A stretch of DNA of 64,000 nt from Dehalococcoidia bacterium (GTDB lineage: Bacteria > Chloroflexota > Dehalococcoidia > Plut-88900). Both the position numbers and the translations under genes were made by a program. Shown here piece after piece: positions 38,097 to 63,580 of the stretch. Location of the stretch: NCBI GenBank assembly GCA_965249275.1, contig CBDFLQ010000005.1, forward strand, positions 672,001 to 736,000, written 5' to 3'. Position 1 is the first letter of the stretch, and each line of letters opens with the position of its first letter. Below the pieces are notes generated by a model that saw only the letters and a list, made by a program, of their open reading frames with translations, searched no databases and had not been told where the DNA came from.

Positions 38097-38242
38097 GTGG
38101 GAAACGAGGTCTTGACGGACGGGTCAAGGTAACTGAAGTGAAGCGTAGAAAACCTTCACTTCAGGCACGAACATAGTATCATTTTCCAGGCAATTAGGCA
38201 ACATAATGTACTAGTTCGGCACGTCAGGGGCAGGCAAGGGCC

Positions 38243-38915
38243 TTTATTCGGTTGTGGGTTGGATTTTGGTTCTTATTTGGGAGGGTTTGGCGATGGAAGA
38301 CGCTGGCTGGACGCTGTCCCCGTTCATGTGCTTCGGGTGTTCCGACGCCCCGGGGCGAGGGCGCCGGCCCGACTACGGCGGACTAAAGCCGCCTGCCGCT
38401 GCTGCGGCCTGTGGCCCTGCATACGCTGGACATGGGCAGGGACCTTCAGGGCCAGCAGGTCCGAGCCCGACTCCGAGGGTTGGCTGCACCGCTATAGGGC
38501 GGCAAGGAGGCCCGTCCAGCGTCCGATGCCGGGCCTCTGCAGGCGTAGTGTGTTCAAGTTTGCCGGTGCGACCCGGAGCGCGTAGACCACCGGCTCCCGG
38601 CTTCATTAAGCGGAGGGGGTACCGAGAGGGCCTCGGCGCCGGGCCTATCCGACCGCTATTCCGCTCGAAGGAGCGGCTTCTCCGTAAGGAGCTTCACATG
38701 GAACTTAACGAACCAGGGCGTCTTTCCATCGCCTGGGGGTCAGGGAAGGGGCACGGGACCTGATGGGATGAGGAGATGGCGGCGTTTGCTTGAGCCGCAG
38801 GCCGCGGGACGGCCATTGGGATGGGCTTGGACGTTGAGTCCTCGGATGGGTCGGGTGGGCTTCCCTGGGTTTTTGGTTCCTCCTTGAGATAGTTAGGTTA
38901 GTGTTCGAACGGTGG
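38243..38915 (-). ncRNA. Putative structured ncRNA, copy A
   Basis: Homologous to 43890-44535; IR arms 38289-38303 and 38717-38733; no conserved ORF. Confidence 0.55.
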
Positions 38916-38917
38916 GG

Positions 38918-38962
38918 AGAATAGCACGAATGTTCATCTAAGGTCAAGGGGGTTGGTGTCAC
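38918..38962 (-). promoter_or_regulatory. sigma70 promoter with LexA-like box (TTGACC-N18-TATTCT; GAACattcGTGC)
   Basis: Same architecture as 43846-43889 and 63537-63580. Confidence 0.7.
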
Positions 38963-39029
38963 TCCTATTGAGGAAGGCGACCGGCCGGTCGTACCTACGG
39001 AAGTGGGGTGAGGTTGTATAATTGTCTGT

Positions 39030-40361
39030 ATGGCGGCGTTTAGGTGGGTAAGGCTGTTTCTCGGGGTGGCGATGTTGGTTGCAGGGCTGACGTTGCTGCT
39101 TAGTCCCGCCCTCGCCCAAAATTCGGAAGAGCAAGTCTACGTACTCACCTACGACGGAGATATAGGCCCAAACGCGGAGCGGTATTTTTCTCGCGGCATC
39201 GAGATGGCGGAGGTTGATGGGGCGGCGTTGGTCGTCATCAAGCTGGACACGCCGGGGGGGTCGCTTTCCTCCACTGAGAAGATTGTGGAGAGGCTGCTCG
39301 GGGCGGAGGTGCCCGTGGCGGTGTACGTCTATCCACCTGGCGCCTTTGCGGCCTCGGCGGGGACGTTTGTCACGGCGGCGGCTAACTTTGCGGTGATGGC
39401 TGAGGGCACGTCCATCGGGGCGGCTTCGCCGGTCGCCGCGGACGGAGAAGACCTGCCCGATACACTATCCGAAAAGGCCATCAACATAACCGTAGCTATG
39501 GCCGAGGGCATCGCAGAGAAACGAGGCCGCGACAAGGAAGCCCTGACCAAGACGATCACGGAGTCGGAGGCGTACACGGCGTCAGTGGCGGTGGAAGTCG
39601 GGTTAGTAGATTTCGTGGCTGTGAACATACAAGACTTGCTTGAACAGCTGGACGGAAGGGAGACGGAGACGGCGTTAGGAACGGTTACGATGCGGACCGC
39701 GGGGCTGGTGGAGCGTGAGGTCGATAGGAACCTCGCTGAGAAGTTCTTCTCGTTCGTCGCAAATCCGAACGTTATAGGTCTACTCCTGACGTTTGGCTCA
39801 ATAGGCCTCTTTGTGGAGCTTCTGAACCCGGGGCTGATCGTTCCCGGGGTCGTTGGGGCGCTGGCGTTAATCGTAGGGCTGGTGGCTCTTGGGGCGCTCC
39901 CGTTCAACTGGGCGGGTGTGGTGCTGCTGGGCCTGGCAGCCATACTGATCTTCCTGGAGATACAGGTTCCGGGGATAGGGTTCCTGGGGGTGGGGGGAGT
40001 GATCGCGTTCGTGCTGGGGGCGCTGCTGCTATTCTCGGTTGGGGAGCCGGACTGGCCGGGGGCCCCGGTGCTCAGGATCAGTTTCTGGCTCGTGGCCATA
40101 CTCTCCGGGATGATGGCGGTATTTGCCCTGGTGATCGTAGGGGCGGTGGTAAGGACGCGAAAGCTGAAATATGCCTCGAGTGTGGAGCTACTTATCGGGC
40201 AGACGGGACAAGTGCTCTCGGAGTTGAACCCCGTGGGGAACGTGCAGCTGAAAAGCGAGACGTGGAGCGCGGTGTCGTCGGGGGAGGGGTCAATAGGGGT
40301 GGGTGATAAGGTGGAAGTGGTCGAAGTCGACGGTCTGACTATCAAAGTCCGCAAGGCGTGA
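39030..40361 (+). CDS. nfeD: NfeD family membrane-bound serine protease
   Basis: LDTPGG, AASAG, SIGAASP, C-terminal OB domain; precedes an SPFH gene. Confidence 0.9.
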   Translation: MAAFRWVRLFLGVAMLVAGLTLLLSPALAQNSEEQVYVLTYDGDIGPNAERYFSRGIEMAEVDGAALVVIKLDTPGGSLSSTEKIVERLLGAEVPVAVYVYPPGAFAASAGTFVTAAANFAVMAEGTSIGAASPVAADGEDLPDTLSEKAINITVAMAEGIAEKRGRDKEALTKTITESEAYTASVAVEVGLVDFVAVNIQDLLEQLDGRETETALGTVTMRTAGLVEREVDRNLAEKFFSFVANPNVIGLLLTFGSIGLFVELLNPGLIVPGVVGALALIVGLVALGALPFNWAGVVLLGLAAILIFLEIQVPGIGFLGVGGVIAFVLGALLLFSVGEPDWPGAPVLRISFWLVAILSGMMAVFALVIVGAVVRTRKLKYASSVELLIGQTGQVLSELNPVGNVQLKSETWSAVSSGEGSIGVGDKVEVVEVDGLTIKVRKA

Positions 40362-40379
40362 ATTAGAAAGGAGCCTTAA

Positions 40380-41258
40380 ATGGCGACACCGGTATTGTTC
40401 CCAGTAATCATCGTAAAGCAGTATGAAAGGATGGTCCCCTTCAGGCTGGGGAAGTTCTACGGGTTGAAGGGCGCGGGTCTGCGGCTCCTGATCCCGTTTA
40501 TAGACAGCTTCCAGAAGGTCGATCTTCGAGAAGACGTAATCGACGTGGCGAGGCAGACCAACATAACCAAGGACAACGCCCCGATAGGCATCGACTTCTT
40601 GATCTACTACAAGGTAGTGGACCATGAGGCAGAGAAGTCGGTCATCGAGGTCCAGGACTTCCGCGCCGCGATTGTAGGTATGGCCACGACAACCCTTAGG
40701 GCCGTAATTGGTGACATCCCCCTGGATGACGTCCTCGCCAAAAGAGAGGAGATCAACATGGTCCTCCGGGTCAAGCTGGATGAAGTCACCAGCCGCTGGG
40801 GCGTGAAGGTGACGGCTGTCGAGATCCGGGAGATCGACCCGCCCACCGAGATCCAGCACGCCATGAACAGGCAGATGGCCGCCGAGCGGGAACGCCGAGC
40901 CGTAGTCACCGAGGCGGACGGCCAGAAAGAGGCCAACATCACAGTCGCAGAGGGACAGAAGCAGGCAGCGATCCTCAATGCCGAGGGCCAGAGGCAGTCA
41001 GAGATACTGAAGGCTGAGGGCAATAGGCAAGCGGCGATTCTCAACGCCGAGGGATTCAGCAATGCGCTGGACCAGATATACAAGGTAGCCCAGGGGGTCG
41101 ATGCGAAGACGATGAGCCTCCAATACTTCGAGACGTTGAAGGAAATTGGGGCCAGCCCCTCCACCAAGTTCATCTTCCCGATGGAGTTCACCAACGTTCT
41201 GAAGCCCTTCATGAACCTGGCCGCCAGCGCCGATGAGGATGCGGCCAACGGGAGGTAG
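40380..41258 (+). CDS. SPFH/stomatin (QmcA-like) protein
   Basis: KVDLRE, ITKDN, TTLRAVIG, WGVKV..VEI, QMAAERERRA. Confidence 0.92.
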   Translation: MATPVLFPVIIVKQYERMVPFRLGKFYGLKGAGLRLLIPFIDSFQKVDLREDVIDVARQTNITKDNAPIGIDFLIYYKVVDHEAEKSVIEVQDFRAAIVGMATTTLRAVIGDIPLDDVLAKREEINMVLRVKLDEVTSRWGVKVTAVEIREIDPPTEIQHAMNRQMAAERERRAVVTEADGQKEANITVAEGQKQAAILNAEGQRQSEILKAEGNRQAAILNAEGFSNALDQIYKVAQGVDAKTMSLQYFETLKEIGASPSTKFIFPMEFTNVLKPFMNLAASADEDAANGR

Positions 41259-41286
41259 GAACGCGGCTGGGGAGTAGACCTATTAT

Positions 41287-41325
41287 GTGGTGGGAAAGGG
41301 CTGCGCTCTTTCCCACCACCGTTTT
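41287..41325 (+). terminator. Intrinsic terminator after the SPFH gene
   Basis: GTGGTGGGAAAG...CTTTCCCACCAC followed by GTTTT. Confidence 0.6.
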
Positions 41326-41366
41326 GATGGGTGGGTGATATACTCGCCTCCCTGCTTCAAGCGCAT

Positions 41367-42530
41367 ATGGCTAAGTCCAACGACAACTCAACATCCGTCC
41401 GCGGGCGTAATGTCTCAGTCGCATACCGTCGGATAGTGGTGAAATTGGGCAGCAACCTGCTTGCGGGGCCCGACCGAGGCCTCGACCTGGGGTGTATGGC
41501 CTCGCTAGTTGGGCAGATAGCGACTATCAGGCGGGAAGGGATGGAGGTGGTGCTGGTGACGTCGGGGGCGATGGCGTCCGGGAGGGAGATTCTGGGCCGG
41601 GTGCCGGAGCACAGGGGTGTGCCGCTGAAGCAGGTGCTGGCGTCGGTGGGGCAGGGAAGGTTGATGCAGGCGTACGACAGGCTGTTCGGGGAGCACGGGA
41701 TAACCGTTGCGCAGGCCCTGGTGTCGAGGGGGGACCTGTCGGATAGGCTCGGGTACCTGAATGTGCGGAACACTCTCAACACTTTGCTGGAGCTCGGGGT
41801 GCAGCCAATCGTTAACGAGAACGATGTTGTTGCCGTCGAGGAGATCAAGGGGACGCGGTTCGGGGACAACGATAATCTATCGGCGATGGTGGCGAACCTT
41901 GTGGACGCGGACCTCCTGATGATCCTTTCGGACGTGGCGGGGTTGTACACATCGGACCCGAGCCTCGACCCGGAAGCGAAGCTCATCCCCAGGGTGGAGG
42001 CGATCGATGAATCGATTACGTCTCTGGCCCAAGGTACGAAGAGCGCGGAGGCAGTCGGTGGGATGGTAACGAAGCTGCAGGCGGCGAGCCTGGCTACGAC
42101 ATCAGGGGTGGACGTGGTGATTGCCAAGGGTCGGATGGAGGACGTGATACCCCGCCTGGCCCGTGGAGAGGGATTGGGCACTTTCTTCCCCAGCCAGACG
42201 ACGAAGATGGAGAGCCGGAAGCGGTGGATGCTGAGCGGGCTGAACTCCCGGGGCTCGGTGCGGGTGGATGGGGGTGCGGTGTCGGCGCTAAAGAGGGGAG
42301 GGAAGAGCCTGCTGCCCGCGGGTGTGGTGGAGGTGTCGGGGAGCTTTGAGCGGGGAGACGTGCTGATCATTCTCGACGGGGACAGCAACCGGATCGCATG
42401 TGGGCTGGCCAACTATGGGGCGGGGGATGCGAAGGCGATAGCGGGACGGCAGTCGGGGGAGATCTTAGAAGTTCTCGGGTACGAGTACGGGGCGGAGCTG
42501 GTGCATAGGGATAACTTGGTGTTGCTGTAG
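41367..42530 (+). CDS. proB: Glutamate 5-kinase
   Basis: VVKLGS, VTSGA, NENDVV, FGDNDNLSA, GGMVTK, PUA domain; start uncertain. Confidence 0.95.
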   Translation: MAKSNDNSTSVRGRNVSVAYRRIVVKLGSNLLAGPDRGLDLGCMASLVGQIATIRREGMEVVLVTSGAMASGREILGRVPEHRGVPLKQVLASVGQGRLMQAYDRLFGEHGITVAQALVSRGDLSDRLGYLNVRNTLNTLLELGVQPIVNENDVVAVEEIKGTRFGDNDNLSAMVANLVDADLLMILSDVAGLYTSDPSLDPEAKLIPRVEAIDESITSLAQGTKSAEAVGGMVTKLQAASLATTSGVDVVIAKGRMEDVIPRLARGEGLGTFFPSQTTKMESRKRWMLSGLNSRGSVRVDGGAVSALKRGGKSLLPAGVVEVSGSFERGDVLIILDGDSNRIACGLANYGAGDAKAIAGRQSGEILEVLGYEYGAELVHRDNLVLL

Positions 42531-42629
42531 GGGAGGGGGGGTTTGTACTGGATCTGGCTCTAGGTTGATTTTGAAACAGCGATATTTACAACTTCCGTCG
42601 CATATTTGTCTTAATGCGTATACCAGCTA

Positions 42630-43484
42630 ATGACTAAGAAGCGTTTGTCTACCAAAATCAGACAAATGGCCGAACTACAATACGCCGAGATTGTCGGACG
42701 CCTTTATGCCAGTGAACATCTGGAGTCGGAAATAGAGAACGTTTCCGACCCTCGCGTATTGTATGGATGGAATCTGTTGACTCAAGAAGTACTGATCCGG
42801 CTTGCGGAGGCGTCCCTAAAGTTGCTCTACATGGTTTACTTCGACCACGAACCGCCGCGTGGTCGCGATGGTCACGATCTTGCGGTCCTTTGGGGAAAAT
42901 TCCCTAAAGAAGTACAGGACGAAGTAGAAGCCAAGCGTCAGAATTATTCCGGCGGCGATCGGCGAATCAGTTTCCCTGACTATAATTTTGATGACTTCCA
43001 GGACGTCAGGTATTTGTACGAGCGCCTATTGGGAGGTCAGGCCAAGTCGTTTGAGACGCGACGATTGTATCTAGATTCGTTCGCCGCTAGAGACGTGGCG
43101 GAAGACTGGTTAGGCAACATAACGACCTGGCCTTGGGCGGGATTGGTAGACCTTGCCTTAGCTGGCTACGAGATCATTCCAACTGCGGAGGATAAGTTAG
43201 ATGTTTGGGTCAAGAATCCGATTAAGCCTATGGATTGGGCAGGCGCGATTATAGAACTCAAAGATGGCCGATATATCTGGACGCTTTTCTGCGGCTTCAC
43301 TAAAGGCAACGGTGAGAGAAAATCTTACAAAATTAAAAGCCCGTGCTACTCATGGCCGCTCGAAGATCTATTGGCCAATACTGTCGAGGAGTGCGCGGAG
43401 AAGATTCACCGGGCCTATCAGGAACCCTGTCCTGCATTGCTCAAGGCCATAGAGGAAGCGACTGAAATGAAGAGTATCAACTAA
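42630..43484 (+). CDS. Hypothetical protein, lower GC, possible HEPN-like N-terminus
   Basis: 284 aa ORF; EASLKLLY...GHDLAVLW..FP...DVRY pattern. Confidence 0.6.
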   Translation: MTKKRLSTKIRQMAELQYAEIVGRLYASEHLESEIENVSDPRVLYGWNLLTQEVLIRLAEASLKLLYMVYFDHEPPRGRDGHDLAVLWGKFPKEVQDEVEAKRQNYSGGDRRISFPDYNFDDFQDVRYLYERLLGGQAKSFETRRLYLDSFAARDVAEDWLGNITTWPWAGLVDLALAGYEIIPTAEDKLDVWVKNPIKPMDWAGAIIELKDGRYIWTLFCGFTKGNGERKSYKIKSPCYSWPLEDLLANTVEECAEKIHRAYQEPCPALLKAIEEATEMKSIN

Positions 43485-43635
43485 AGCGCGAGTGCACGGC
43501 ATAAGAGTTGCGTAGTCAATTGCACACAATTATTAGGTAAATAGTGGTAGGCAAAGGCTACCCGGACGGGCTCGTGGTATATTATTCAGGCTAAGATGCA
43601 CCTACCTCAAGTGTGCTGAAATTGAAGCAGAAAAA

Positions 43636-43698
43636 ATGACTACCAGCGTTAAACAGGACCTTAGGGCGCAGGCTTTGGCGGCTCGGGGGTCGGGGCGG
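43636..43698 (+). pseudogene. Duplicated 5' fragment of proA (21 codons)
   Basis: 59/63 nt identical to 44613-44675. Confidence 0.85.
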
Positions 43699-43845
43699 AG
43701 GTGGGTTGGGAGGGTGCGAAGAGGTGGTTTGAAGTGGAGTTGCTTAGGTCTGGCTAGTCGTCAGCTATTCCCACCCGGCATAGGAGACGCCTTCGGAGAG
43801 AGATTTACGTTGGGTCGGGCCGTTTGATCCCGTTCACATAGAGGG

Positions 43846-43889
43846 GTGACATCACCCCCTTGACATTATAAGTACTTATGTTCTATATT
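43846..43889 (+). promoter_or_regulatory. sigma70 promoter with LexA-like box (TTGACA-N18-TATATT; GTACttatGTTC)
   Basis: Near-consensus -35/-10; operator lies in the spacer. Confidence 0.75.
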
Positions 43890-44535
43890 CTAACCAGGTC
43901 TAGACCACCTAACCCAACTACCTTAAGGAGGTACACAACACCCAGGGAAGCCCACCCGACCCACCAGAGGACTCAACGTCCAAGCCCATCCCAACGGCCC
44001 TCGCGCAGGCCTGCGGCACAAGCAAACGCCGCCATCTCCTCATCCCCACGGGTCCCGTGCCCCCTTCCCTGACCCCCAGGCGATGGAAAGACGCCCTGGC
44101 CTTCACGCTCCCACCCTGCTCCCTGTACGGGAGATTGCATCAAGGGTGACCCGAGCATACACTCCGCGGACCGCCTAACCCCCATGGAGAACCGTCTCGA
44201 ACGTCGGGCCGCATTGCTGGAGATTGGCGCTACGGCGCGGGGGTGCCCGGAGGATATTCGCTCCTGTCCTTTTCCGGCGAACTTGGACACTATTAGTTAG
44301 GCTGTGGGGCCTCGCACAGCTGGATCCCTGGCCCCGACGTGCCCCCACGGGCATACAGCCCCCATAAGGAGCCTCTGCCGGACGTCTGGCCCGAGAATTG
44401 TCCGTGTATACCATCTAGCATCAGGGCATACTGGCTGCAAGTCCACGTACAAGCAGCTCTGCCAAATGGGCGTCTTCCATCGCCAACCTCCTCCCAACAG
44501 ACAGAACGGAAACCAAAACCCCACAACTGAATAAA
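43890..44535 (+). ncRNA. Putative structured ncRNA, copy B
   Basis: IR arms 44079-44096 and 44468-44484; many hairpins, including gcgc-TACG-gcgc. Confidence 0.55.
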
Positions 44536-44612
44536 ACCCGGTGTGTCACTAATCTACCGAACGAGTACACGTTCTTGCCCCTCGGCGGTCAAGTCCTGAT
44601 AATAGGAGAGCA

Positions 44613-45890
44613 ATGACTACGAGTGTTAAACAAGACCTTAGGGCGCAGGCTTTGGCGGCTCGGGGGGCGGGGCGGGAGCTGGGTCGGGCGAACAGTGCAA
44701 TTAAGGACCGGGCCCTGAGGAACATAGCGCGAGCCCTTCTCGAAAAGCAGGAGGATATTGTCGCGGCCAACCGTCGGGACTGCGAGACGGGTGTTGCAAC
44801 GGGGTTGTCGGACGCTCTGTTGGACCGGCTCCTGCTTACGCCCGAGCGGATTCAAGCTCTCGCTGCGGATGTTGAGGGCATTGCCGTGCTGCCCGACCCT
44901 GTAGGCGAGACGTTCGATATGCGGACGCTTCCGAATGGGCTGCAGGTCGGGAAGAGGCGTGTGCCATTGGGCCTGATCGGGGCCATATATGAAAGCCGCC
45001 CGAATGTGACCATAGACATATCTTGCCTATGTCTCAAGTCGGGCAACGCGGTGCTGCTGAGGGGCGGCAAGGAGGCCATCAGGTCGAACCTTATCCTCTC
45101 CTCAATTGTAAGGGAGAGCCTGGTCGAGGCTGGGGGGCCGGGCGAGGCTGTTCAGTTCGTCGAGTCGACGGACCGGTCCCTGGTCGGTGAGATGCTCGGC
45201 ATGAAGGGGTTGATCGACCTGTTAGTGCCCCGGGGCAGTGAGCAGTTCATACGCTACGTAGGAGAGAACGCTTCGATGCCGGTGGTAGAGGGTGGGGTGG
45301 GGGTGTGCCACACGTATGTGGACAAGTCGGCCAATCTGGACAGTGCGGTAGCCATAGCCTACAATGCCAAGGTACAACGCCCCTCCACCTGCAACGCCCT
45401 GGACACCCTCATCGTGCACTCCGCCGTCGCCCACGAATACTTACCTCGAATCGCCCGCGCCTGGAGTGAGAAGGGCGTAGAGATACGGTGCGACGAAAGG
45501 GCCCTCGACCTGCTACAGAGCGTGCCCGAGGCCCGGTCAGTCCCCGCAACCGAGTCCGACTGGGGTACGGAGTTTCTTGCCCTGGTCGCCTCGGTCAAAG
45601 TTGTAGACGGGCTGGACGAGGCCCTGAACCACGTAGAGACCTATGGGTCGGGGCATTCAGAGGCGATAATTACCGAGGACTACTCGGCGGCGCAGAGGTT
45701 CCTGGATGAGGTGGACGCGGCGGCCGTATTTGTAAATGCCAGCACCCGCTTCACTGACGGCGGCCAGTTTGGCCTCGGGGCAGAGGTGGGGATCAGCACG
45801 CAGAAGCTGCACGCTCGGGGCCCGATGGGGCTCCGGGAGATGACTTCCTACAAGTGGATAATTCTGGGCCGCGGTCACGTCCGGCCCTAG
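44613..45890 (+). CDS. proA: Gamma-glutamyl phosphate reductase
   Basis: IYESRPNVT, LKSGNA, RGGKEA, CNALDT, NASTRFTDGG, STQKLHARGPMGL. Confidence 0.96.
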   Translation: MTTSVKQDLRAQALAARGAGRELGRANSAIKDRALRNIARALLEKQEDIVAANRRDCETGVATGLSDALLDRLLLTPERIQALAADVEGIAVLPDPVGETFDMRTLPNGLQVGKRRVPLGLIGAIYESRPNVTIDISCLCLKSGNAVLLRGGKEAIRSNLILSSIVRESLVEAGGPGEAVQFVESTDRSLVGEMLGMKGLIDLLVPRGSEQFIRYVGENASMPVVEGGVGVCHTYVDKSANLDSAVAIAYNAKVQRPSTCNALDTLIVHSAVAHEYLPRIARAWSEKGVEIRCDERALDLLQSVPEARSVPATESDWGTEFLALVASVKVVDGLDEALNHVETYGSGHSEAIITEDYSAAQRFLDEVDAAAVFVNASTRFTDGGQFGLGAEVGISTQKLHARGPMGLREMTSYKWIILGRGHVRP

Positions 45891-55735: not shown

Positions 55736-55884
55736 GGGGGTGTTCCTCCCTCGTATTGGGGTTGAGGCGCGGCTTTATGCTATCGGTGATGGGGGTGTGG
55801 GGTCAAACGGGGGGAGGGATGGATTCACGCCTCGGCGCATCTTCGACCGGCTCGGGGGCCGGGATGACACCATAAGAGAAGTTG

Positions 55885-56253: not shown

Positions 56254-56311
56254 GACGTCGGTTCTCCTATGCGGGGGCAACGGTCCAGCCGATTCGGTTT
56301 GAAGTTGGAGC

Positions 56312-56686: not shown

Positions 56687-56819
56687 GACGTCGGTTCTCC
56701 TAGTGCGGCTTGAAAGAAATCTAACAGGCCCCGTATCCGTTGTCACCTGCCCACGGGACGGGTGCGGTTGACACCGCGAGAATCGGACACTTAACATCGT
56801 GAGCGGAGGGGAGATTAAG

Positions 56820-57245
56820 ATGTCTGTTTTTCCGTCCGTCGAGTGGTTTGAGGAGGTCAGGGAGGTTGTGAACCCGAGCAAGGAGTTCCGGGCCCTGGGC
56901 AACTGTGACGCGAACATGGGGGTGAAGGTAGGGGACAGGGCCTTCTCCCTGAAGTTCGAGGCGTTTTCCTGCGAGGAAGTGTCCGAGATTGGTGCCGAGG
57001 GGCTGGCGGACCTGGACTTCTACCTGGAGATGTCGTCGAAGGACTGGCGGGAGTTGCTCAGCAATATCGAGTCCAACGGCAAGGCAGATGGGGAGCATAG
57101 CTTGAACACTCTTGACCTGACGCGGGAGGGTGGGATTTTGCGGGTCAAGGATGACTTTCTGCGGCAATCTTTTCTTCGATATCACCTTTCGTTCCAAGCC
57201 TATTTCGACGCTTCTGCCCAAGTGGAGACAGTCTTCGCCTCTTAG
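56820..57245 (+). CDS. Hypothetical protein, possibly SCP2-like fold
   Basis: N-terminal FPSVEWF..V...N motif and DLDFYLE....W. Confidence 0.6.
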   Translation: MSVFPSVEWFEEVREVVNPSKEFRALGNCDANMGVKVGDRAFSLKFEAFSCEEVSEIGAEGLADLDFYLEMSSKDWRELLSNIESNGKADGEHSLNTLDLTREGGILRVKDDFLRQSFLRYHLSFQAYFDASAQVETVFAS

Positions 57246-57254
57246 GTCGACCTT

Positions 57255-57539
57255 ATGCCACTGTACGAATACAAGTGCCTCGGGTGCCAGCATGTGACCA
57301 GCCGTTATTGGCGCAACTTTTCACCGCCTGAAACGATCGCTTGCGAGGGGTGTGGGGACGCTGGAGCGGAGCGGCGGTTCTCGACCTTCGCCTTTCACAA
57401 GTCTGCGGAGACGAAGATGGCGGAACTTGACCCGAAGTACGACAAGATGGTCGACGAGGCGTTCAAAAACTCGCCTGCCACGTCGGACCCCCAGCATTAC
57501 TTGGACAAGATGGCATCATTCGACGGCGTACCGGACTAG
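57255..57539 (+). CDS. FmdB-family zinc ribbon protein
   Basis: MPLYEYKCLGC...CEGCG..RRFS. Confidence 0.85.
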   Translation: MPLYEYKCLGCQHVTSRYWRNFSPPETIACEGCGDAGAERRFSTFAFHKSAETKMAELDPKYDKMVDEAFKNSPATSDPQHYLDKMASFDGVPD

Positions 57540-57569
57540 GGCATCTCCCCACTGCGCTAAACTAGGCCG

Positions 57570-58772
57570 ATGAGCATGGAAGTCGGGGTGTGGGTGGGAG
57601 CCGGTTTATCAGTTTCCGCATTACTTGCCTGGGGCTGGCTTACGCTTTTCAGAGGCCGGTTCTGGGCGACGGACCAACGGCTAGAAGTTCTACAGGCCAA
57701 GGAAGGTGGTTCCTGGCCGGGGGTCGTGGCGGTGATCCCGGCCCGGAATGAGTCCGAGGTCATTAGTCAAACAATTCCAACAGTCCTTGCCCAACGCTAC
57801 CCGGGTCCTGTGTCGGTCTATCTAGTTGACGACCGGAGTTCGGATGGAACTGCTGATATCGCTAAGGCCGCCGCCAGAGAAGCCTACAAAGGGTTTTCCT
57901 TCAAAGTGGTGATGGGCAAGGAAAGACCCGAGGGGTGGGCGGGGAAGGTGTGGGCACTGCAACAGGGCGTCGAGGCGGCAAAGACAGTCGACCATGAATA
58001 TTTCTGGTTCACCGATGCGGATATAGCCCACAGACCGAATGTGTTGGCGTCTCTCGTGGCGCGGGCGGAGGAAGAGGGGTTGGATATGGTCTCGGTGATG
58101 GCGAAGCTGCATGTGTCTACCTTCTGGGACAGGCTTCTCATACCAGCCTTTGTGTTCTTCTTCGGGAAGCTATATCCATTTCACTGGGTGAACGATCACG
58201 AGAAGAGTATGGCAGCCGCGGCGGGAGGATGTGTGCTGGTGAGGAAAGAACGGCTGGTGGAGGGTGGGGGTTTTGAATCGATGAGGGACGCGATAATCGA
58301 CGACTGCACTCTTGCTCGGTTGGTACGCGGTCCTGAGGGTCGGGGGAGATTGTGGTTGGGGATGAGCCAGGAGGTGCAAAGCGTCCGGCCCTATGACGGG
58401 CTCAGAGGCATTTGGGACATGGTGGCGAGGACGGCTTACGTACAGCTACGTCACTCGCCGATCCTGTTGGCGGGTACGATTTTGGGGATGGTGTGGCTGT
58501 ATCTCGGGCCTCCGGCGGCAATGGGCGCAGGGATAGGGTTAGCTGCCGTTGGGGTATGGGACACGCCGACGTGGGTGTTGTTGGTCTCGGGAGCGGTGGG
58601 GTGGGGGCTAATGTCGGCGATATACACGCCGATGTTGAAGTGGTACGGGCTGAACCGTTGTTGCGGACTACTGCTGCCTACGGCCGGCCTTCTGTACACG
58701 CTGATGACCGTGGACTCGGGGCGGAGGTACTGGATGAGAAGGGGCGGGGGGTGGAAGGGGCGGACCTACTAA
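57570..58772 (+). CDS. GT2 glycosyltransferase, HpnB-like
   Basis: PARNE, VDDRSSDGT, GWAGKVWA, TDADI, AAAGGCVL, IIDDCTLA, MVARTAY.QL, GGGWKGR. Confidence 0.85.
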   Translation: MSMEVGVWVGAGLSVSALLAWGWLTLFRGRFWATDQRLEVLQAKEGGSWPGVVAVIPARNESEVISQTIPTVLAQRYPGPVSVYLVDDRSSDGTADIAKAAAREAYKGFSFKVVMGKERPEGWAGKVWALQQGVEAAKTVDHEYFWFTDADIAHRPNVLASLVARAEEEGLDMVSVMAKLHVSTFWDRLLIPAFVFFFGKLYPFHWVNDHEKSMAAAAGGCVLVRKERLVEGGGFESMRDAIIDDCTLARLVRGPEGRGRLWLGMSQEVQSVRPYDGLRGIWDMVARTAYVQLRHSPILLAGTILGMVWLYLGPPAAMGAGIGLAAVGVWDTPTWVLLVSGAVGWGLMSAIYTPMLKWYGLNRCCGLLLPTAGLLYTLMTVDSGRRYWMRRGGGWKGRTY

Positions 58773-58784
58773 GCCAAGTGCCGG

Positions 58785-60026
58785 TCAGACCAGCTCTCGG
58801 GGGCGGCGGTCCCATTCGGCGGGGAGGAAGAAGGCAGCGATGGTCAGTGTTACTCCGGCCATACCCACGATGGTCAGTGCAAGGCGCCGGTCGTCGGAGA
58901 GTTCGTGAAGTACCCCCGCCGCTATGGGGCCGCTCATAGCTCCGACCATCAAAGCCGTCCTTAAGAATCCCATCGCCACGGCGATCTCCCGGGTCCGGAT
59001 GCCCTTCAATTGGAAGGGTATGGTGAATATCACCGGGAAGAAAGTGAAGCTGAGGCCGTGTAGCAGTGATAAGACCACCAAGACCGGGAAAGACCCGGAA
59101 TAGAGTAGGGCTACGGTAGTCACAGAAATCAACGCTCCGCCCACACGCAGAGCCGTTCTACGCTTACCAGTCTTGTTGACCATAAGGTTGATGCCCAGCC
59201 CGGAGGGACCGGCAACCATGCCGCCGATGGCCCAGATCAGGGCCGAAGTCTGGATATCAATGCCGTATGTGTCTTTCATGTGGCTGGGCCAGAAGGTGGC
59301 AAAGGAGGAAAAGGTCATCTCGACTCCCACCAATCCGATGGCCAAGAGCCACAGCTCCTTGTAGCGAAGGGCGCTCCTGATGGATACAGGCTCCTTACTT
59401 TCCTTTTCGGTCTCGGCGTCGGGCATGGGACGCTCTCTACCTACGACGAACCAGACCACGGCTAAAGCAATGGTTGCATAGCCGAGGACCTGCATAGTCT
59501 TGCGCCAATCGTCGTCCAGAGCCTTCAGGATGACCGGTATGAGGATAAATAACGCCGCGCCGATGCCCCAGAGCAGCTCAATAGAGGCGTTGGCAATCAG
59601 TATCTGCCGGGGCCGTATCCACATCCTGAGGAGCAGGGTCCGGGCGGGTTCTCTTAGGGTTATGGAGAGGCCGTATAGCAATCTCGCCAGCAGGACGAAG
59701 CCGTAGACGGGGGCCCAAGCCTGAAAGAAGATGACGCAGACTGCTCCAACAATGGAGACCAGGGTGAGCAGTTTGGGGGGGAAGCGGGAAAGGTAGAGCC
59801 CGAAAGGGATGGACAAAATGAGGACCGTCAGCTGGGGCGCTGCTCCGAGGAGGCCTTCCCGGACGGGGGTGAGATTGAGCTCCTCACGCATGGATGGCAG
59901 GAAAAGGCCCAGGGTCTCCATGACCAGATACCCCCACATGTGGATCGCCATCCAGGTGAGGATAACTACCCATCCGTAAATGGGGCTTTGGAGCGAATTG
60001 GCAATCCGCGGGACTGCTTGTGCCAT
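58785..60026 (-). CDS. MFS transporter
   Basis: About 12 hydrophobic segments, 413 aa. Confidence 0.8.
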   Translation of the reverse strand: MAQAVPRIANSLQSPIYGWVVILTWMAIHMWGYLVMETLGLFLPSMREELNLTPVREGLLGAAPQLTVLILSIPFGLYLSRFPPKLLTLVSIVGAVCVIFFQAWAPVYGFVLLARLLYGLSITLREPARTLLLRMWIRPRQILIANASIELLWGIGAALFILIPVILKALDDDWRKTMQVLGYATIALAVVWFVVGRERPMPDAETEKESKEPVSIRSALRYKELWLLAIGLVGVEMTFSSFATFWPSHMKDTYGIDIQTSALIWAIGGMVAGPSGLGINLMVNKTGKRRTALRVGGALISVTTVALLYSGSFPVLVVLSLLHGLSFTFFPVIFTIPFQLKGIRTREIAVAMGFLRTALMVGAMSGPIAAGVLHELSDDRRLALTIVGMAGVTLTIAAFFLPAEWDRRPRELV

Positions 60027-60264
60027 GATGCGGGCAATCCTAACACCGGCGGGGTGGGAGTGGGGCCTTAGCCTGAGAGAGTGGACTGCAATATCAATTA
60101 TTGCAGAGGATTCTTTTGTACTGCCTGGCCGGTTAGGGCATGGGCCGCGATAGTAATGAGAGAGTCACTGGGTGATACAAATGCCCTTAGGCACAGAATG
60201 CCGGTGCCTCAACGGGCGTTCACGCGTGGGGTGGAAGGGACCTTGAACCGTAGCGTTAGTGGAG

Positions 60265-60627
60265 TTAACTTTCCGATGTATCGTCGGTAAGCGGGGTAAC
60301 CTCACCGATGGGGGCAGTTGGGTATCCAAGTTCCAGGGCTAGCCGGTAGCGGCCTTCCAAGCCAACCCAAACGTGAGCCGGGATTTCCAAAACCGCCTCC
60401 AATTCCACGGCTGTCCTTGGCGTCAGAGCCCTCTTGCCCAGGGCGATTTCGTTGATAACGTGGAGGGGGCGTTTCATTTCGGCGGCCAGACGCCTCTGGC
60501 TCATTCCTCGGGCCTCCAGCTCATCCTTAAGCATCAGCCCAGGTGGAATCGCGATTTTAGGCATTACCTGCGAAATGTCCGAGGAAGCCGGAATTTTGGG
60601 CACTCCTGTTTTGGCTTCAGTCGCCAT
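60265..60627 (-). CDS. higA: HigA family antitoxin
   Basis: PPGLMLKDELEARGMSQ..LA..INEI..GKRALT..W. Confidence 0.88.
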   Translation of the reverse strand: MATEAKTGVPKIPASSDISQVMPKIAIPPGLMLKDELEARGMSQRRLAAEMKRPLHVINEIALGKRALTPRTAVELEAVLEIPAHVWVGLEGRYRLALELGYPTAPIGEVTPLTDDTSES

Positions 60628-60913
60628 AGTGTGCACTCACCTCTCTAACAACTACCGATTGGTCACCAACCGGCTCGATTATCAATCGCCAGCGTCCCTG
60701 GAGGGTCATGGCCCATAAACCGCTCATGTTTCCCTTGAGGGGATGCACCCGAAGCGCTCGGGATTTCATCAGGGCCTGCAAACTGTCTGCTACAACCAAT
60801 AGCTCAATCCTGTTCACATACCTCAACCCAATGCTCGGCCCCCATTCACGAATTGCATCCGATGGATTGTAAAAGCGCCGTTCAAGTCTCTTGTTGGCAA
60901 AATCCACTTTCAC
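60617..60913 (-). CDS. higB: HigB (RelE-like) toxin
   Basis: HPLKGNMSGLWAM...RWRLI; upstream of and overlapping higA. Confidence 0.85.
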   Translation of the reverse strand: MKVDFANKRLERRFYNPSDAIREWGPSIGLRYVNRIELLVVADSLQALMKSRALRVHPLKGNMSGLWAMTLQGRWRLIIEPVGDQSVVVREVSAHYGD

Positions 60914-61034
60914 TACTGGAATAATGTACCACCATCGGTGGTACATAGACAAGGTGAAGTTAGTGGCGCGGGGGAGTCGCTCTTCTCCCTTAGCAGAAGC
61001 GAGGCCTTGCAGGTCGAAGTCGGCCCAGACGGGT

Positions 61035-62321
61035 CTAGCGGTGGTTACGCGCCCACTTACGGACCATTCCGGGATCCGGTTCCTGTTTGAGGCAGCCTCG
61101 GGCGCCGCCTAGGCGCTGGAAGTCTCGGGAGCGCTTGGCCAGGTTTCGGCGGAAGAGGATCAGGCCCCTGTCGAGGAGGCCGAGCTTCTGGGGGCGCTCC
61201 AGGTTGATGTGCTCGGTCTTGAAGACGATGAGGTCTTCTTTTTCGTTGATTGCGACAACCCGGGCAGGCTTGTTCCAGAGGTAGTACCAGACGTCCATCC
61301 AGAACTTTCCGAGGAAGGTCTTGGGAGTCTTGCAGACGGTGAAAGTCCAGACCCGGGTGTTTTGCTCGTCGACGGGGACGCCCCATCTCAGATGCACCAG
61401 GCTGCCGATGCAAACCCTGATCTTTGTTGGCAGCTGGAGGTTGTGGTTGTAGGTGGCCCAGGCCTTTTCTCCTGTGGCGGTGGCGATCATGCCTGCGTTG
61501 GGTGTCTTAGGTGCGGAGAGCTTACGCCACCAGGTCTTTCGGGGCCATTTGCCAAGGCCGGGGTATTCTGCCTGGCCGAACTTGGCCTCGGCGGTCTTGA
61601 CCCAGATATTGTCCTCGCCTTCGGAGACGATCTCGGTGCCGCCGGTAGAGACGGACTTGGGCCGCCAGAAAGGTAAGCGGTAATCGACGAATCGCCAGAA
61701 GTTCAAGCCCCGGTGGAGGTAGAACTCGTGGTAGTCGATGCCCTGGTTCATGGGCTCGGTCCAGTTGGTTTCCCACGTCTTGACCCTGGTGTATTTACGT
61801 CCGGTGAGGGTCGAGTCGGAGAACTCGTAAGGGAGGTCCTCTTCGAAGGGGACAGGGTCGGTCTCTCCCATCCAGACCAGGACTATGCCCTGCCACTCGG
61901 CGGTGGGGTAGACGCGGGTGCGCATCTTGTTGACCAGGGGGGACTCGGTGCTCTCGATGAGGCCGGCGACGCAGTTACCCGTCTCGTCGAAAGTGTAACC
62001 GTGGTAGGGACAGGTGACGGTCCCTTCGAACTCGCAGAAGCCGCGGGAGAGTCGGGCGCCGCGGTGGGGGCACCATTCGTTGAGGGCAACTATTTTGCCG
62101 TTCTTGCCCCGGAACAGGACGAGTTCATCTCCGAGCATCTTGATGTTCTTGGGCTTGCGTCCCACTTCCTTGGTCCAGACGCAGGGGTACCAGTACTCAC
62201 GGAACCCGACCTTGGGAACGTAGTCAAAGGGGCCTATTTGCGTTGCGCCGTAGGACTCGTCCTGGACATCGGGGACGTGGACGGCTGGAATCTGTCGTTC
62301 TCTTCGTGTAGTTACTACCAT
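61035..62321 (-). CDS. Rieske [2Fe-2S] aromatic-ring oxygenase, alpha subunit
   Basis: CPHRG...CPYHG; N.GID.H...LH mononuclear iron motif; ED. Confidence 0.88.
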   Translation of the reverse strand: MVVTTRRERQIPAVHVPDVQDESYGATQIGPFDYVPKVGFREYWYPCVWTKEVGRKPKNIKMLGDELVLFRGKNGKIVALNEWCPHRGARLSRGFCEFEGTVTCPYHGYTFDETGNCVAGLIESTESPLVNKMRTRVYPTAEWQGIVLVWMGETDPVPFEEDLPYEFSDSTLTGRKYTRVKTWETNWTEPMNQGIDYHEFYLHRGLNFWRFVDYRLPFWRPKSVSTGGTEIVSEGEDNIWVKTAEAKFGQAEYPGLGKWPRKTWWRKLSAPKTPNAGMIATATGEKAWATYNHNLQLPTKIRVCIGSLVHLRWGVPVDEQNTRVWTFTVCKTPKTFLGKFWMDVWYYLWNKPARVVAINEKEDLIVFKTEHINLERPQKLGLLDRGLILFRRNLAKRSRDFQRLGGARGCLKQEPDPGMVRKWARNHR

Positions 62322-62605
62322 AGTGCCTAACCCCTCGCTAAAGATCTGCATCCGGGGACATGGGTGTGAGGATGATTCTACCAGACGTTGGGCCGGGCAA
62401 CAAAAGGGGGTTGGGGTTCAATTGTGGGGGAAGGGTGTGTGGGTGTGGGCTAGTGGGTGGTTCCTTTCTTGGGTCGGGGGAGGGGTGTGGACGCCCCGTT
62501 CGGGGCATCCACACCCTGGGCGACTGGCCGGTCGTCCCTACTGGGGAAGTGGAGAAGGGGGAGGGGAGGGGGCAAGGGGCGAGCCCCACCCCAGGGCGAC
62601 CAGCC

Positions 62606-62737
62606 GAGCCTGTCTCAAAAGTCGCCCCATGCCCCTCTTCCCGCTCTTATACGACTTGGATTCGTGCCTACGGCACCCGTCGCATTGGTCAAGAATATCC
62701 AATCGGGCTGTGTCTAACGGACTTATGAGACAGGCTC
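62606..62737. mobile_element. 132 bp MITE with IS1182-type inverted repeats, inserted in a REP
   Basis: GAGCCTGTCTCAAAAGT...ACTTATGAGACAGGCTC, 4 bp TSD AGCC. Confidence 0.85.
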
Positions 62738-62784
62738 AGCCGGTCGCCCCTACGGGGGAGGGGGCAGATAGAGGGGGAAGGGGA

Positions 62785-63535
62785 GGGGATGGAAGGTCCC
62801 GGACGGTTGCGCAAGAAGACGGCGACGCCTGTACCGATGGGTGTTGTCCGCGACAGCGGATGTTCCACATCGACGCCGGCTCTGCGACAGCCCCGTGCTT
62901 CTGAGAGGACGTGGAAGAGACGCGAGGGGATCTCGGTGTGGGGCAGTCTCGACCACCAGAAGTGCCCGACCACCCTAAGGGATGGGAGCGTGGACCCGTG
63001 ACCGGCGTTCGTAGACCGGAGTTCTCCGATGGTGACGACGGTGGAATCCCTAAATGGTGCGTTTGTTTTAAGTCGGAGGTTGTCCGACTGTTCGGACTCG
63101 CCAGCAAGGTCTAGGCCGGGGGAGTCCGGAGGTGGCGCTATGGCCCAAGGAGGAGACATGACGCTGTGCTCCGGGGCGTCGCCTGAGGAGGCGAAACGGA
63201 TGCGCCGGGTGAGTGGGGCGCGCACTTGGCAGTGGCCCTTGGAAAGGGCAAGCCAGGTTTTGTCCGGGGATCTTCCATAGCCGGTCGCGTGGACCGGGCG
63301 GGACAGTGATTGATCGCTGCGGAGGCGGAGGCGATGGGCCTTGGGGCAGCGCTTGTAGTGGGGGATGTGTGGTGGGACGTTGGATGGAAAGGGACAGGGG
63401 AGGAGGCGCGTGCCTGTGGCCGGGCGGTGGCATACCGCTCGGTTACGACGGGGCCTATGGAGGCTTGTGCGACTCATGGGACTCCTATGTCCTTTCCTTA
63501 TTAGGGCCGACGTTGGAAGAGTCGGGCCTGGGGGG
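62785..63535 (-). ncRNA. Putative structured ncRNA, divergent copy C
   Basis: Same promoter type; IR arms 62789-62804 and 63262-63278; core CGACTTAAAACA. Confidence 0.45.
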
Positions 63536-63536
63536 C

Positions 63537-63580
63537 AATATAGTACAGATGTTTTGATTTAGTCAAGGGGTTCGTGTCAC
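63537..63580 (-). promoter_or_regulatory. sigma70 promoter with LexA-like box (TTGACT-N18-TATATT; AAACatctGTAC)
   Basis: GTGACA..CCCCTTGAC upstream element shared with copies A and B. Confidence 0.7.

What the first reader, a model, noticed from the sequence alone, without database searches (positions are those of the whole stretch)
38207..63580. Candidate new multicopy, SOS-regulated large structured ncRNA family (3 copies in 25 kb)
Seen: three intergenic loci share one architecture: A 38243-38962 (minus), B 43846-44535 (plus) and C 62785-63580 (minus). (1) A GTGACA..CCCC-TTGAC-N-TAT(A/T)(T/C)T promoter. (2) A ~200-250 nt C/A-rich 5' domain, nearly identical in A and B, recognisable in C through CAACGTCC..CATCCC and GTCCCG. 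(3) A long-range inverted repeat: GGCGATGGAAAGACGC / GCGTCTTCCATCGCC in A and B, and ATGGAAGATCCCCGGAC / GTCCGGGACCTTCCAT in C, where both arms have changed together and pairing is kept. (4) Between the arms, 370-460 nt of poorly alignable, hairpin-dense sequence with a central motif (CCGGCAAACTTGAACAC, CCGGCGAACTTGGACAC, CCGACTTAAAACA) 150-200 nt after arm 1. (5) A conserved C/A-rich 3' tail ending GAATAAA in A and B. A and B have an AAGGAGG with no start codon, and 1-nt indels between them break any frame, so they are not coding. I do not recognise tmRNA, RNase P, SRP, 6S or intron hallmarks. Inference: a constant scaffold plus a variable folded domain closed by a long stem resembles retron msr-msd (a1/a2) or guide/decoy RNAs acting with a protein encoded elsewhere. 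No RT or nuclease is linked in this window.
Basis: partly seen in the sequence, partly recalled or inferred. Interest (0 to 1): 0.92.

Follow-up and report, generated by a model that had tools for sequence, protein, structure and literature searches.

The report
Terminase-derived, promoter-carrying mobile repeat family
The three loci are copies of a roughly 65-copy family of 0.7-0.9 kb repeats that descend from a phage-type DNA-packaging (terminase) operon, kept its DNA-damage-type promoter and spread like miniature transposons, so they are not a free-standing new RNA gene family, although two of the three do look like structured non-coding transcripts.

Summary
The sequence features are real, but three copies is a large undercount. 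The 2.9 Mb genome holds about 65 copies, and all 9 genomes of the genus hold dozens. None was found in 292 other Dehalococcoidia genomes.

The family descends from a two-gene operon: a small ORF plus a terminase large subunit (TerL), driven by the same promoter with a LexA-like box. That operon is found in 32 of 41 related genomes.

Locus C keeps an ATG-started frame homologous to TerL residues ~194-375, but it evolves neutrally (dN/dS 0.87). Loci A and B keep only the promoter, the flanks and the last TerL codons and stop (GAATAA). Their cores do not keep a frame, and A-type cores show sense-strand covariation.

A subfamily that includes B has TG...CA inverted ends, 5-bp target duplications and clean empty sites, so it behaves like a MITE. 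A possible helper is an IS481-like transposase.

No reverse transcriptase gene, TnpB gene or Rfam match was found.

Verdict: a new variant of a known kind (a non-autonomous mobile repeat). RNA function and SOS control are plausible but not shown.

The parts
38209..38965 (-). Element A (core type 2): promoter to 3' terminus. No left terminal repeat; degenerate right terminus.
   Evidence: Present at 95% identity in G005 and G002. In G003 and G001 an unrelated 114 nt stands in its place. 8 type-2 copies in the genome.
38918..38962 (-). A: GTGACA (38962-38957), -35 TTGACC (38947-38942), box GAACATTCGTGC (38935-38924), -10 TATTCT (38923-38918)
38879..38885 (-). A: AAGGAGG with no start codon after it
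38718..38733 (-). A: arm 1, GGCGATGGAAAGACGC
   Evidence: helix 1: 14 pairs, 97.7% of cells paired.
38304..38717 (-). A: hairpin-rich non-coding core with no detectable TerL signal
   Evidence: no hit at E<0.1; covariation; hairpin-sized indels.
38289..38303 (-). A: arm 2, GCGTCTTCCATCGCC
38243..38288 (-). A: C/A-rich tail ending GAATAAA (38249-38243), read as the counterpart of the last TerL codons and stop (GGCTATGAATAA)
   Evidence: 13 of 19 full-length cassettes end ..TATGAATAA. The equivalence is by position and motif, not by a scored alignment.
38207..38231 (-). A: remnant of the right terminal repeat (..GTGCCGAACTAGTACA)
43825..44569 (+). Element B (core type 6): complete MITE-like copy with both terminal repeats
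   Evidence: Left end TGATCCCGTTCACATAGAGGGGTGACA, right end GTGTCACTAATCTACCGAACGAGTACA. Flanked by CGTT at 43821-43824 and 44570-44573.
43846..43889 (+). B: GTGACA (43846-43851), -35 TTGACA (43860-43865), box GTACTTATGTTC (43872-43883), -10 TATATT (43884-43889)
   Evidence: 11 of 12.
44079..44094 (+). B: arm 1
44095..44469 (+). B: non-coding core. It shares only motifs (stem + GGCRAACT, CTGGA) with the A-type and type-3 cores.
   Evidence: The nhmmer profile of A-type and type-3 cores does not reach B itself at E<=1e-3, and reaches two B-like copies at about 7e-4.
44470..44484 (+). B: arm 2
44485..44535 (+). B: C/A-rich tail ending GAATAAA
43636..43710 (+). Second copy of the first ~75 nt of proA (44613-44687) upstream of B. 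This marks a rearrangement junction, not a target duplication.
62775..63580 (-). Element C (core type 0): promoter, SD+ATG, TerL-derived open frame, arms. No terminal repeats seen.
63537..63580 (-). C: GTGACA (63580-63575), -35 TTGACT (63566-63561), box AAACATCTGTAC (63554-63543), -10 TATATT (63542-63537)
   Evidence: 10 of 12.
62689..63477 (-). C: 262-aa open frame. No Pfam or PHROG family. dN/dS among 9 paralogues is 0.87.
62809..63378 (-). C: stretch homologous to TerL residues ~194-357
   Evidence: tblastn 52% identity, E 1.9e-50; profile hit 5.7e-31.
63262..63278 (-). C: arm 1, ATGGAAGATCCCCGGAC
62789..62804 (-). C: arm 2, GTCCGGGACCTTCCAT

Best explanation
A, B and C are three members of a genus-restricted family of 0.7-0.9 kb repeats, with about 65 copies in this genome.

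Origin. The family arose from an internally deleted copy of a terminase operon: LexA-box promoter, small ORF1, then terminase large subunit. The repeats kept four things from it: the promoter and operator; the part of TerL around residues 194-375, bounded by two arms that have become a 15-17 bp inverted repeat; the last TerL codons; and the stop codon.

Spread. The repeats spread in two ways. One is as non-autonomous, MITE-like transposons with TG...CA inverted ends and 5-bp target duplications, moved in trans by an rve-type transposase, possibly the IS481-like one. The other is recombination among copies, which swaps cores at fixed sites.

State of the three loci. In C the TerL-derived frame is still open but drifts neutrally. 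In A and B the core is non-coding and keeps a sense-strand fold.

Inferred, not shown: each copy is repressed by LexA. After DNA damage it gives a transcript of roughly 650-750 nt with no terminator, which can read into the gene downstream.
For: Copy number and range:
- Searches give the copy number in this genome.
- All 9 genus genomes have matches.
- In a class-wide DNA search, 9 of 301 genomes matched and all 9 are from this genus, 1 of 192 genera.

Descent from the terminase operon:
- The long cassette at G000:C7:110671-112620 has the same promoter.
- Its ORF2 hits PHROG terminase large subunit families at 2.6e-6.
- 12 of 24 homologues hit Pfam Terminase_6C.
- The model's best Foldseek matches are T4 gp17 (1.9e-11), HK97, Sf6 and D6E large terminases.
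- A TerL profile hits the cores of types 0, 4 and 5 in one frame, 20 of the 21 copies of these types at E<0.1.
- The TerL stop context GGCTATGAATAA matches the A/B tail.

The promoter is ancestral:
- The TerL operon of another genus has TTGACG..TAGAACGCATATTCTA..TATTAT.
- recA has TAGAACACATATCCTA. That is 14 of 16 identical, by my count, to the cassette's TAGTACACATATTCTA. lexA has AGAACGCCCGTTCC.

Mobility:
- 9 copies have both terminal repeats. Exact 5-bp direct repeats flank 5 of the 9, and 4 of 5 bases match in 2 more.
- Two elements in relatives face clean empty sites here. One has the duplication TTTCG.
- A is present in 2 and not present in 2 of 4 relatives whose flanks align.
- The IS481-like element (rve, rve_3) has a TGTA.. 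terminal repeat and 5-bp duplications. It matches the element's right end at 17 of 27 positions by my count.

Core swapping: 4 of 10 orthologous sites hold elements less than 70% identical, between flanks that are 86-95% identical.

Coding state:
- dN/dS is 0.87 for C-type, against 0.29 for full-length TerL.
- A/B-class landmark distances are not frame-keeping.

Fold. Frequent G-U pairs on the promoter-sense strand.

Transcript run-on:
- No terminator-like site at the 3' ends.
- The downstream gene is co-directional for 37 of 55 copies (p=0.014, crude gene calls).

RNA: contigs of two RNA libraries lie on 38394-38782 and 43969-44168.
Against: - Only 9 of about 55 promoter-bearing copies have both terminal repeats. 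A has only a degenerate right end and C has none, so most copies show no transposon ends.
- No autonomous element with the same ends was found in this genome.
- Close relatives of the IS481-like transposase were found in only 5 of 9 genus genomes. One of those has a single copy with stops. All 9 genomes hold the repeats.
- The cores of A, B and of types 1 and 3 give no TerL signal, so their descent from TerL is by chain only: shared 5' domain, arms and tail.
- Neutral decay does not explain why the 7 distinct C-type lengths (9 copies) are all 0 mod 3.
- A purely selfish repeat does not explain the covariation. Nor does it explain why locus A is 97.5-98.6% identical between species while its flanking genes are 93-94% identical.
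- Transcription, LexA binding and read-through are untested. The RNA-library contigs could be carried-over multicopy DNA.
Confidence: 0.6

Rival explanations
1. The A/B-type elements are working, trans-acting structured RNAs induced by DNA damage. They act with a protein encoded elsewhere, most naturally the ORF1/TerL packaging proteins from which they derive, for example as a cofactor, decoy or regulator. Their high copy number would be a by-product of being carried on a mobile unit.
For: - Sense-strand covariation with controls.
- Hairpin-sized indels.
- Arms lengthened from about 6 complementary bases in the TerL gene to 15-17 in the repeats.
- Core types kept at 80-99% identity across species.
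- Locus A is more conserved than its flanking genes.
- The promoter and operator are conserved in 50 sites.
Against: - At 8 of 10 orthologous sites the element is less conserved than its flanks, and cores are swapped at 4 of the 10.
- No linked partner gene was found.
- The covariation rests mostly on one split between two clades, and the structure was derived from the same alignment.
- The B-type core is only weakly related to the A-type core.
- No Rfam family matches.
- The profile of A-type cores finds nothing in 80 viral loci that carry TerL relatives.
Confidence: 0.2
2. The copies are portable DNA-damage-inducible promoters. The host-relevant effect would be read-through into the downstream gene, and the internal sequence would be a passenger.
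For: - No terminator-like site at the 3' ends.
- The downstream gene is co-directional for 37 of 55 copies, and the upstream gene is divergent for 34 of 55.
- By my reading of the ORF list and Pfam hits, A, B and C all point at the next gene: pepC26-gyrA, proA and a Rieske oxygenase. The crude gene calls score C as convergent.
Against: - The bias is modest and rests on crude ORF-based gene calls. It could equally reflect insertion into promoter regions.
- 600-700 nt of conserved, folded leader is not needed for a promoter.
- The downstream genes have no common theme.
Confidence: 0.12
3. The loci are plain decayed duplicates of a terminase gene, that is pseudogene fragments with no mobility and no function.
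For: C-type dN/dS is 0.87. There is TerL homology.
Against: - About 65 dispersed copies with sharp ends.
- Target duplications, terminal repeats and empty sites.
- A conserved promoter.
- Covariation.
Confidence: 0.03
4. The loci are retron, TnpB/IscB guide-RNA or group II intron relatives.
For: Only the superficial layout: a long stem closing a variable folded domain.
Against: - No RVT_1 and no TnpB-type match in the genome (completeness 87%).
- No Rfam match at gathering score in the window, and none credible at E<=10 on A or E<=1 on B.
Confidence: 0.02

Closest known systems
MITEs: miniature inverted-repeat, non-autonomous derivatives mobilised in trans by IS transposases
   Same: Under 1 kb, no transposase gene, dozens of copies, TG...CA inverted ends, 5-bp target duplications, and presence/absence differences between species with clean empty sites.
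   Different: - The interior derives from a phage-type terminase operon, not from an IS.
- Every copy carries a full sigma-70-type promoter with a LexA-like operator and an SD.
- The interior shows RNA-type covariation.
- Most copies lack recognisable ends.
- No matching autonomous element was found.
Phage terminase large subunit genes (T4 gp17, HK97, Sf6 type), and the terminase genes of gene transfer agents (the latter recalled, not tested)
   Same: The full-length cassette's ORF2 has the terminase fold and motifs. C retains the region around residues 194-375.
   Different: The three loci do not encode a terminase. C lacks the ATPase domain and the C-terminal part of the nuclease domain and drifts neutrally. 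A and B are non-coding.
LexA-regulated promoters of the SOS regulon (Gram-positive type box GAAC-N4-GTTC; consensus recalled)
   Same: A palindromic xxAC-N4-GTxC box sits between the -35 and -10 hexamers. It resembles the boxes upstream of this genome's lexA and recA.
   Different: Binding and induction are untested. Many copies carry GTAC-N4-GTAC or GAAC-N4-GTGC variants.
Large structured bacterial RNAs (OLE, GOLLD, ROOL, HEARO) and the phi29 packaging RNA (recalled)
   Same: Length of about 650 nt, many hairpins closed by a long-range stem, and a link to packaging proteins by descent.
   Different: No Rfam match; about 65 copies; mobile; confined to one genus. No evidence of a ribonucleoprotein.

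Membership tests
MITE / non-autonomous DDE-transposon derivative | Short, multicopy, no transposase gene | tested here: met
   0.7-0.9 kb. 55 promoter-bearing members in this genome. No transposase-like ORF inside.
MITE / non-autonomous DDE-transposon derivative | Terminal inverted repeats | tested here: inconclusive
   Present at both ends in 9 copies, including B. About 20 left and 22 right ends in all. A has only a degenerate right end and C has none.
MITE / non-autonomous DDE-transposon derivative | Target-site duplication of fixed length | tested here: met
   An exact 5-bp repeat flanks 5 of 9 copies, 4 of 5 bases match in 2 of 9, and none in 2 of 9. TTTCG is duplicated around the element in L012 and occurs once in the empty site here.
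MITE / non-autonomous DDE-transposon derivative | Empty sites in relatives | tested here: met
   Two clean empty sites. Locus A is not present in G003 and G001, but there 114 nt of other sequence stands in its place.
MITE / non-autonomous DDE-transposon derivative | Cognate autonomous element with matching ends | tested here: inconclusive
   The IS481-like element matches 17 of 27 end positions and makes the same 5-bp duplication. Close relatives were found in only 5 of 9 genus genomes.
Structured non-coding RNA family | Conserved secondary structure with compensatory changes | tested here: met
   A-type plus type 3: 14 of 73 pairs changed on both sides, covariation score 0.176 against 0.120 in shuffles (0 of 500 reach it), slid controls 0.04-0.06. 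Caveats: two clades, and the structure was derived from the same alignment.
Structured non-coding RNA family | No conserved reading frame | tested here: inconclusive
   Met for the A/B class. Not met for C-type, where 9 of 9 copies stay in frame.
Structured non-coding RNA family | Transcribed as a discrete RNA | tested here: inconclusive
   Contigs of two RNA libraries lie on parts of A and B, but contigs cannot show ends or exclude DNA.
Known Rfam families (retron msr, group II intron, HEARO, OLE, GOLLD, ROOL and others) | Covariance-model match | tested here: not met
   0 matches at gathering score in the window. Nothing credible at E<=10 on A or E<=1 on B.
Retron | Adjacent or genomic reverse transcriptase | tested here: not met
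   PF00078 gives 0 matches in the genome (completeness 87%).
TnpB/IscB guide RNA | TnpB or IscB gene | tested here: not met
   PF07282 gives 0 matches. IscB was not searched separately.
Terminase large subunit (as a gene or a fragment of one) | Sequence or fold homology to TerL | tested here: met
   Met for C and for the full-length cassette. For the A and B cores it is not met.
Terminase large subunit (as a gene or a fragment of one) | Purifying selection on the protein | tested here: not met
   C-type dN/dS is 0.87, the same as shifted frames (0.89 and 0.80). Full-length TerL is 0.29.
LexA (SOS) regulon member | Operator like those of lexA and recA in the same genome | tested here: met
LexA (SOS) regulon member | LexA binding and induction by DNA damage | not testable with these tools
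   Needs EMSA or ChIP, and RNA-seq with mitomycin C.

The most novel reading that the evidence does not exclude
The repeats may be a dispersed, DNA-damage-induced accessory of the class-wide conserved terminase operon. That operon is a stand-alone small-ORF plus TerL unit with no other phage gene recognised among its immediate neighbours. The repeats could be structured RNAs that bind or regulate the packaging proteins, or dispersed recognition modules that let a gene-transfer-agent-like system start packaging at about 65 chromosomal sites. Under this reading their mobility would be secondary.
Probability: 0.1. Interest if true: 0.9.

Novelty: new variant of a known kind. Interest (0 to 1): 0.55.

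Why it matters
The finding shows how a phage-type packaging operon can seed a high-copy mobile repeat. That repeat scatters a complete, probably LexA-controlled promoter and a folded transcript across a small symbiont genome. About 65 loci would then share one stress signal, and the repeats offer many sites for recombination: cores are swapped at fixed sites, and a rearrangement junction lies at proA.

It is also a caution for RNA discovery. Covariation and lack of a reading frame do not by themselves mark a dedicated RNA gene.

The side finding may be the more important lead. A stand-alone terminase operon with a LexA-type promoter is kept in most Dehalococcoidia searched.

Tried and rejected
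Retron, TnpB and intron readings. No RVT_1 or TnpB match was found in the genome and no Rfam match.

C as a real protein.
- No Pfam or PHROG family matched.
- 464 database relatives exist, all unnamed.
- 146 of the 150 matches listed in the genus have no stop. However, other frames of these C-rich sequences are also largely open.
- dN/dS is neutral.
- I leave the 0-mod-3 lengths unexplained.

A 76-nt 'target duplication' at B. I rejected this. It is a junction between two different proA upstream arrangements seen in relatives.

Purifying selection on single copies. It is seen at locus A but does not generalise: 8 of 10 sites go the other way.

A/B cores as TerL-derived. Neither blastn nor a TerL profile on three frames supports this. 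Only motif-level resemblance remains.

A-type core profile against 80 viral loci carrying TerL relatives. No hit at E<=1.

Neighbours of TerL in one viral locus (L186). No Pfam family was found, so the viral context was left open.

RNA libraries X19 and X20. No contig lay on the first ~130 nt of A's predicted transcript, on the first ~70 nt of B's, or on most flanking gene bins.

Literature. Four full-text searches found nothing on such elements: Dehalococcoidia/noncoding RNA/repeat/LexA; large noncoding RNA/Chloroflexi/multicopy/structured RNA; terminase/MITE/IS481/LexA; sponge/Chloroflexi/Dehalococcoidia/terminase/gene transfer agent. I saw listings and abstract openings only and read no paper. 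Supplements are closed.

Not done:
- A covariance model of the core.
- Characterisation of ORF1. It has no Pfam or PHROG hit, and its reading as a small terminase subunit is a guess.

Full report
**What is there**

Reading the three loci confirmed the shared layout. Each has:
- GTGACA, a few bases, then CCCCTTGAC;
- an 18-nt spacer that holds a xxAC-N4-GTxC palindrome;
- a TAT(A/T)(T/C)T -10 hexamer;
- a leader with AAGGAGG (A, B) or AGGAG-N4-ATG (C);
- a C-rich 5' domain;
- two arms that pair over 15-17 bases around 370-460 nt;
- a C/A-rich tail.

The consensus scan independently calls the three promoters: A 38947-38918(-), B 43860-43889(+), C 63566-63537(-). It finds no terminator-like site at their 3' ends. 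Rfam gives nothing at gathering score in the window, and nothing credible at loose thresholds on A and B.

**Copy number and range**

A blastn search of the whole genome (2.9 Mb, 7 contigs, 87% complete) shows the loci are not a trio.
- There are 54 long matches to the A/B 5' domain and 13 to the C 5' domain.
- A strict promoter pattern hits 50 sites.
- A looser pattern followed by all-against-all comparison gives 55 promoter-bearing members in 10 core types, of sizes 14, 13, 8, 7, 5, 2, 2, 2, 1 and 1.
- A belongs to type 2, B to type 6 and C to type 0.

All 8 other genomes of the genus hold dozens of first-look candidates (49-94, of which only part were scored), and the same core types recur there at 80-99% identity. 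The 5' domain was not found in 32 genomes of other genera. The whole A element matched in 9 of 301 genomes of the class, all of this genus, 1 of 192 genera. Record titles of relatives read 'MAG: Dehalococcoidia bacterium'.

**Coding or not**

For the A/B class, distances between fixed landmarks take all residues mod 3, and no start codon follows the SD. These elements are not frame-keeping.

C is different. All 9 C-type copies keep the ATG, and the ATG-to-arm-2 lengths are 600 (three copies), 669, 681, 687, 699, 708 and 741. All are 0 mod 3, and the frames stay open for 246-303 codons.

A genus-wide translated search placed part of this frame inside open frames of about 490-575 codons. That led to full-length units.

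**The parent**

G000:C7:110671-112620 carries the same promoter (GTGACACGAACCCATTGAC..TAGTACACATATTCTATATT), a 137-aa ORF1 and a 462-aa ORF2. The evidence that ORF2 is a terminase large subunit:
- It hits PHROG terminase large subunit families for both halves of the protein (2.6e-6, 3.8e-6, 2.5e-4).
- 12 of 24 homologues hit Pfam Terminase_6C.
- The AlphaFold model has a mean pLDDT of only 59, good in the nuclease domain. Its best Foldseek matches are T4 gp17 (1.9e-11) and the HK97, Sf6, D6E and T7 large terminases.

The neighbours of this copy are ordinary genes (UbiA, a PQQ-type propeller protein, YidC). Each genus genome has 1-4 intact copies.

TerL relatives were found in 32 of 41 related genomes, mostly once per genome. 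More than 4000 database proteins and 139 viral-contig loci are related.

In another genus of the family the operon has TTGACG-TAATAGAACGCATATTC-TATTAT upstream. So the promoter and box belong to the operon and were inherited by the repeats.

**How the repeats map onto the parent**

- C and types 4 and 5 match TerL residues ~194-376 in one frame and match the cassette DNA colinearly.
- The arms correspond to the TerL codons around GKGRFID and GPSIVKP. In the gene they share about 6 complementary bases. In the repeats they pair over 15-17.
- The tail ends at GAATAA, as the TerL genes do: 13 of 19 end ..TATGAATAA.
- The cores of A, B and of types 1 and 3 give no TerL signal. They are tied to the family by the shared promoter, 5' domain, arms and tail.

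C-type frames have dN/dS 0.87, the same as shifted frames. Full-length TerL has 0.29. So C is not kept as a protein, although its frame keeping remains unexplained.

**Mobility**

Nine copies, B among them, have the left end TGATCCCGTTCACATAGAGGGGTGACA and the right end GTGTCACTAATCTACCGAACGAGTACA. This is an imperfect TG...CA inverted repeat. Exact 5-bp direct repeats flank 5 of the 9, and 4 of 5 bases match in 2 more.

Two elements in relatives face clean empty sites in this genome. One has TTTCG duplicated. Locus A is present in G005 and G002. In G003 and G001 an unrelated 114 nt stands in its place.

No larger unit with these ends exists here.

The genome has a 12-14-copy IS with a 320-aa rve/rve_3 transposase, the end sequence TGTAAGTGTTAGGTAATTCGTTGACAG and 5-bp duplications. 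It matches the element's right end at 17 of 27 positions by my count. Close relatives of this transposase were found in only 5 of 9 genus genomes, so the helper is not settled.

At 10 orthologous sites the element is less conserved than its flanks in 8. In 4 it is under 70% identical, which means a different core sits at the same site. This points to recombination among copies.

B also marks a rearrangement junction: the first ~75 nt of proA occur twice.

**Is there an RNA?**

On 19 A-type and type-3 cores, RNAalifold predicts the closing stem and 16 further helices, 73 pairs in all.
- 97% of cells are paired.
- 14 pairs changed on both sides, against 9.1 in shuffles (0 of 500 reach it) and 1-4 in slid controls.
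- G-U pairs are frequent on the promoter-sense strand.

The caveats are that most double changes reflect one split between two clades, and that the structure came from the same alignment. B-type cores share only motifs with these.

Contigs of two RNA libraries lie on parts of A and B. That is compatible with transcription but does not prove it.

**Regulation and effect (inferred)**

The boxes resemble those upstream of lexA (AGAACGCCCGTTCC) and recA (TAGAACACATATCCTA) in this genome.

There is no terminator. The downstream gene is co-directional in 37 of 55 cases (p=0.014, crude gene calls). Damage-induced read-through into neighbouring genes is therefore plausible.

**Verdict**

The interpretation as a new stand-alone RNA gene family is only partly right.

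The best-supported reading is a genus-specific, terminase-operon-derived, promoter-carrying repeat family. It spreads like a MITE and by recombination. A and B are probably structured non-coding transcripts, and C is a drifting TerL remnant.

Noticed in passing
G000:C7:110671-112620 (L098:2671-4620); relatives: A stand-alone operon of a small ORF plus a terminase large subunit, with a LexA-type promoter. No other phage gene was recognised among the immediate neighbours checked. TerL relatives were found in 32 of 41 related Dehalococcoidia genomes, mostly once per genome. This could be a domesticated or gene-transfer-agent-like packaging module.
   Followed up: partly
window 38097-38208: The spacer between element A and the pepC26-gyrA genes is 112 of 112 identical to G005 and G002, while the flanking genes are 93-94% identical. 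It holds a hairpin (CTGAAGTGAAG..CTTCACTTCAG). It may be a leader or regulatory element, or part of a recent recombination tract.
   Followed up: no
window 63590-63640; many other places, e.g. L100:3030-3082: A short REP-like repeat (GTCATTCCGAGGCCCCGCGAGGAATCTGGGGCGGGG) is scattered through the genome. It is the preferred insertion target of the IS481-like element, which duplicates ATTCC/GGAAT.
   Followed up: partly
window 62680-62737: A 58-nt stretch just past element C recurs at 100% and 98% identity at three other places (C5:488411-488468, C7:193088-193145, C5:57815-57872). This is another small repeat family.
   Followed up: no
window 43636-43710 and 44613-44687: The first ~75 nt of proA occur twice, either side of element B. 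Relatives show two different proA upstream arrangements, so B sits at a rearrangement junction.
   Followed up: yes
G000:C6:411198-411650 (L131:298-750): A third copy of the promoter, followed by a diverged ORF1 homologue (37% identity). No TerL follows. Nearby on the other strand is a DNA methylase-HNH fusion gene.
   Followed up: partly
G000:C5:2212-4410 (L099): A 732-aa ankyrin-repeat protein lies next to the second full-length terminase cassette at the start of contig C5.
   Followed up: no
G000, genome-wide: Other multicopy transposases: an IS5-like family (11 copies), a second rve family (8 copies, ends TGTACAGACCGGG..), and a 498-aa family (3 copies). The family labels are from my reading of the sequences.
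   Followed up: partly
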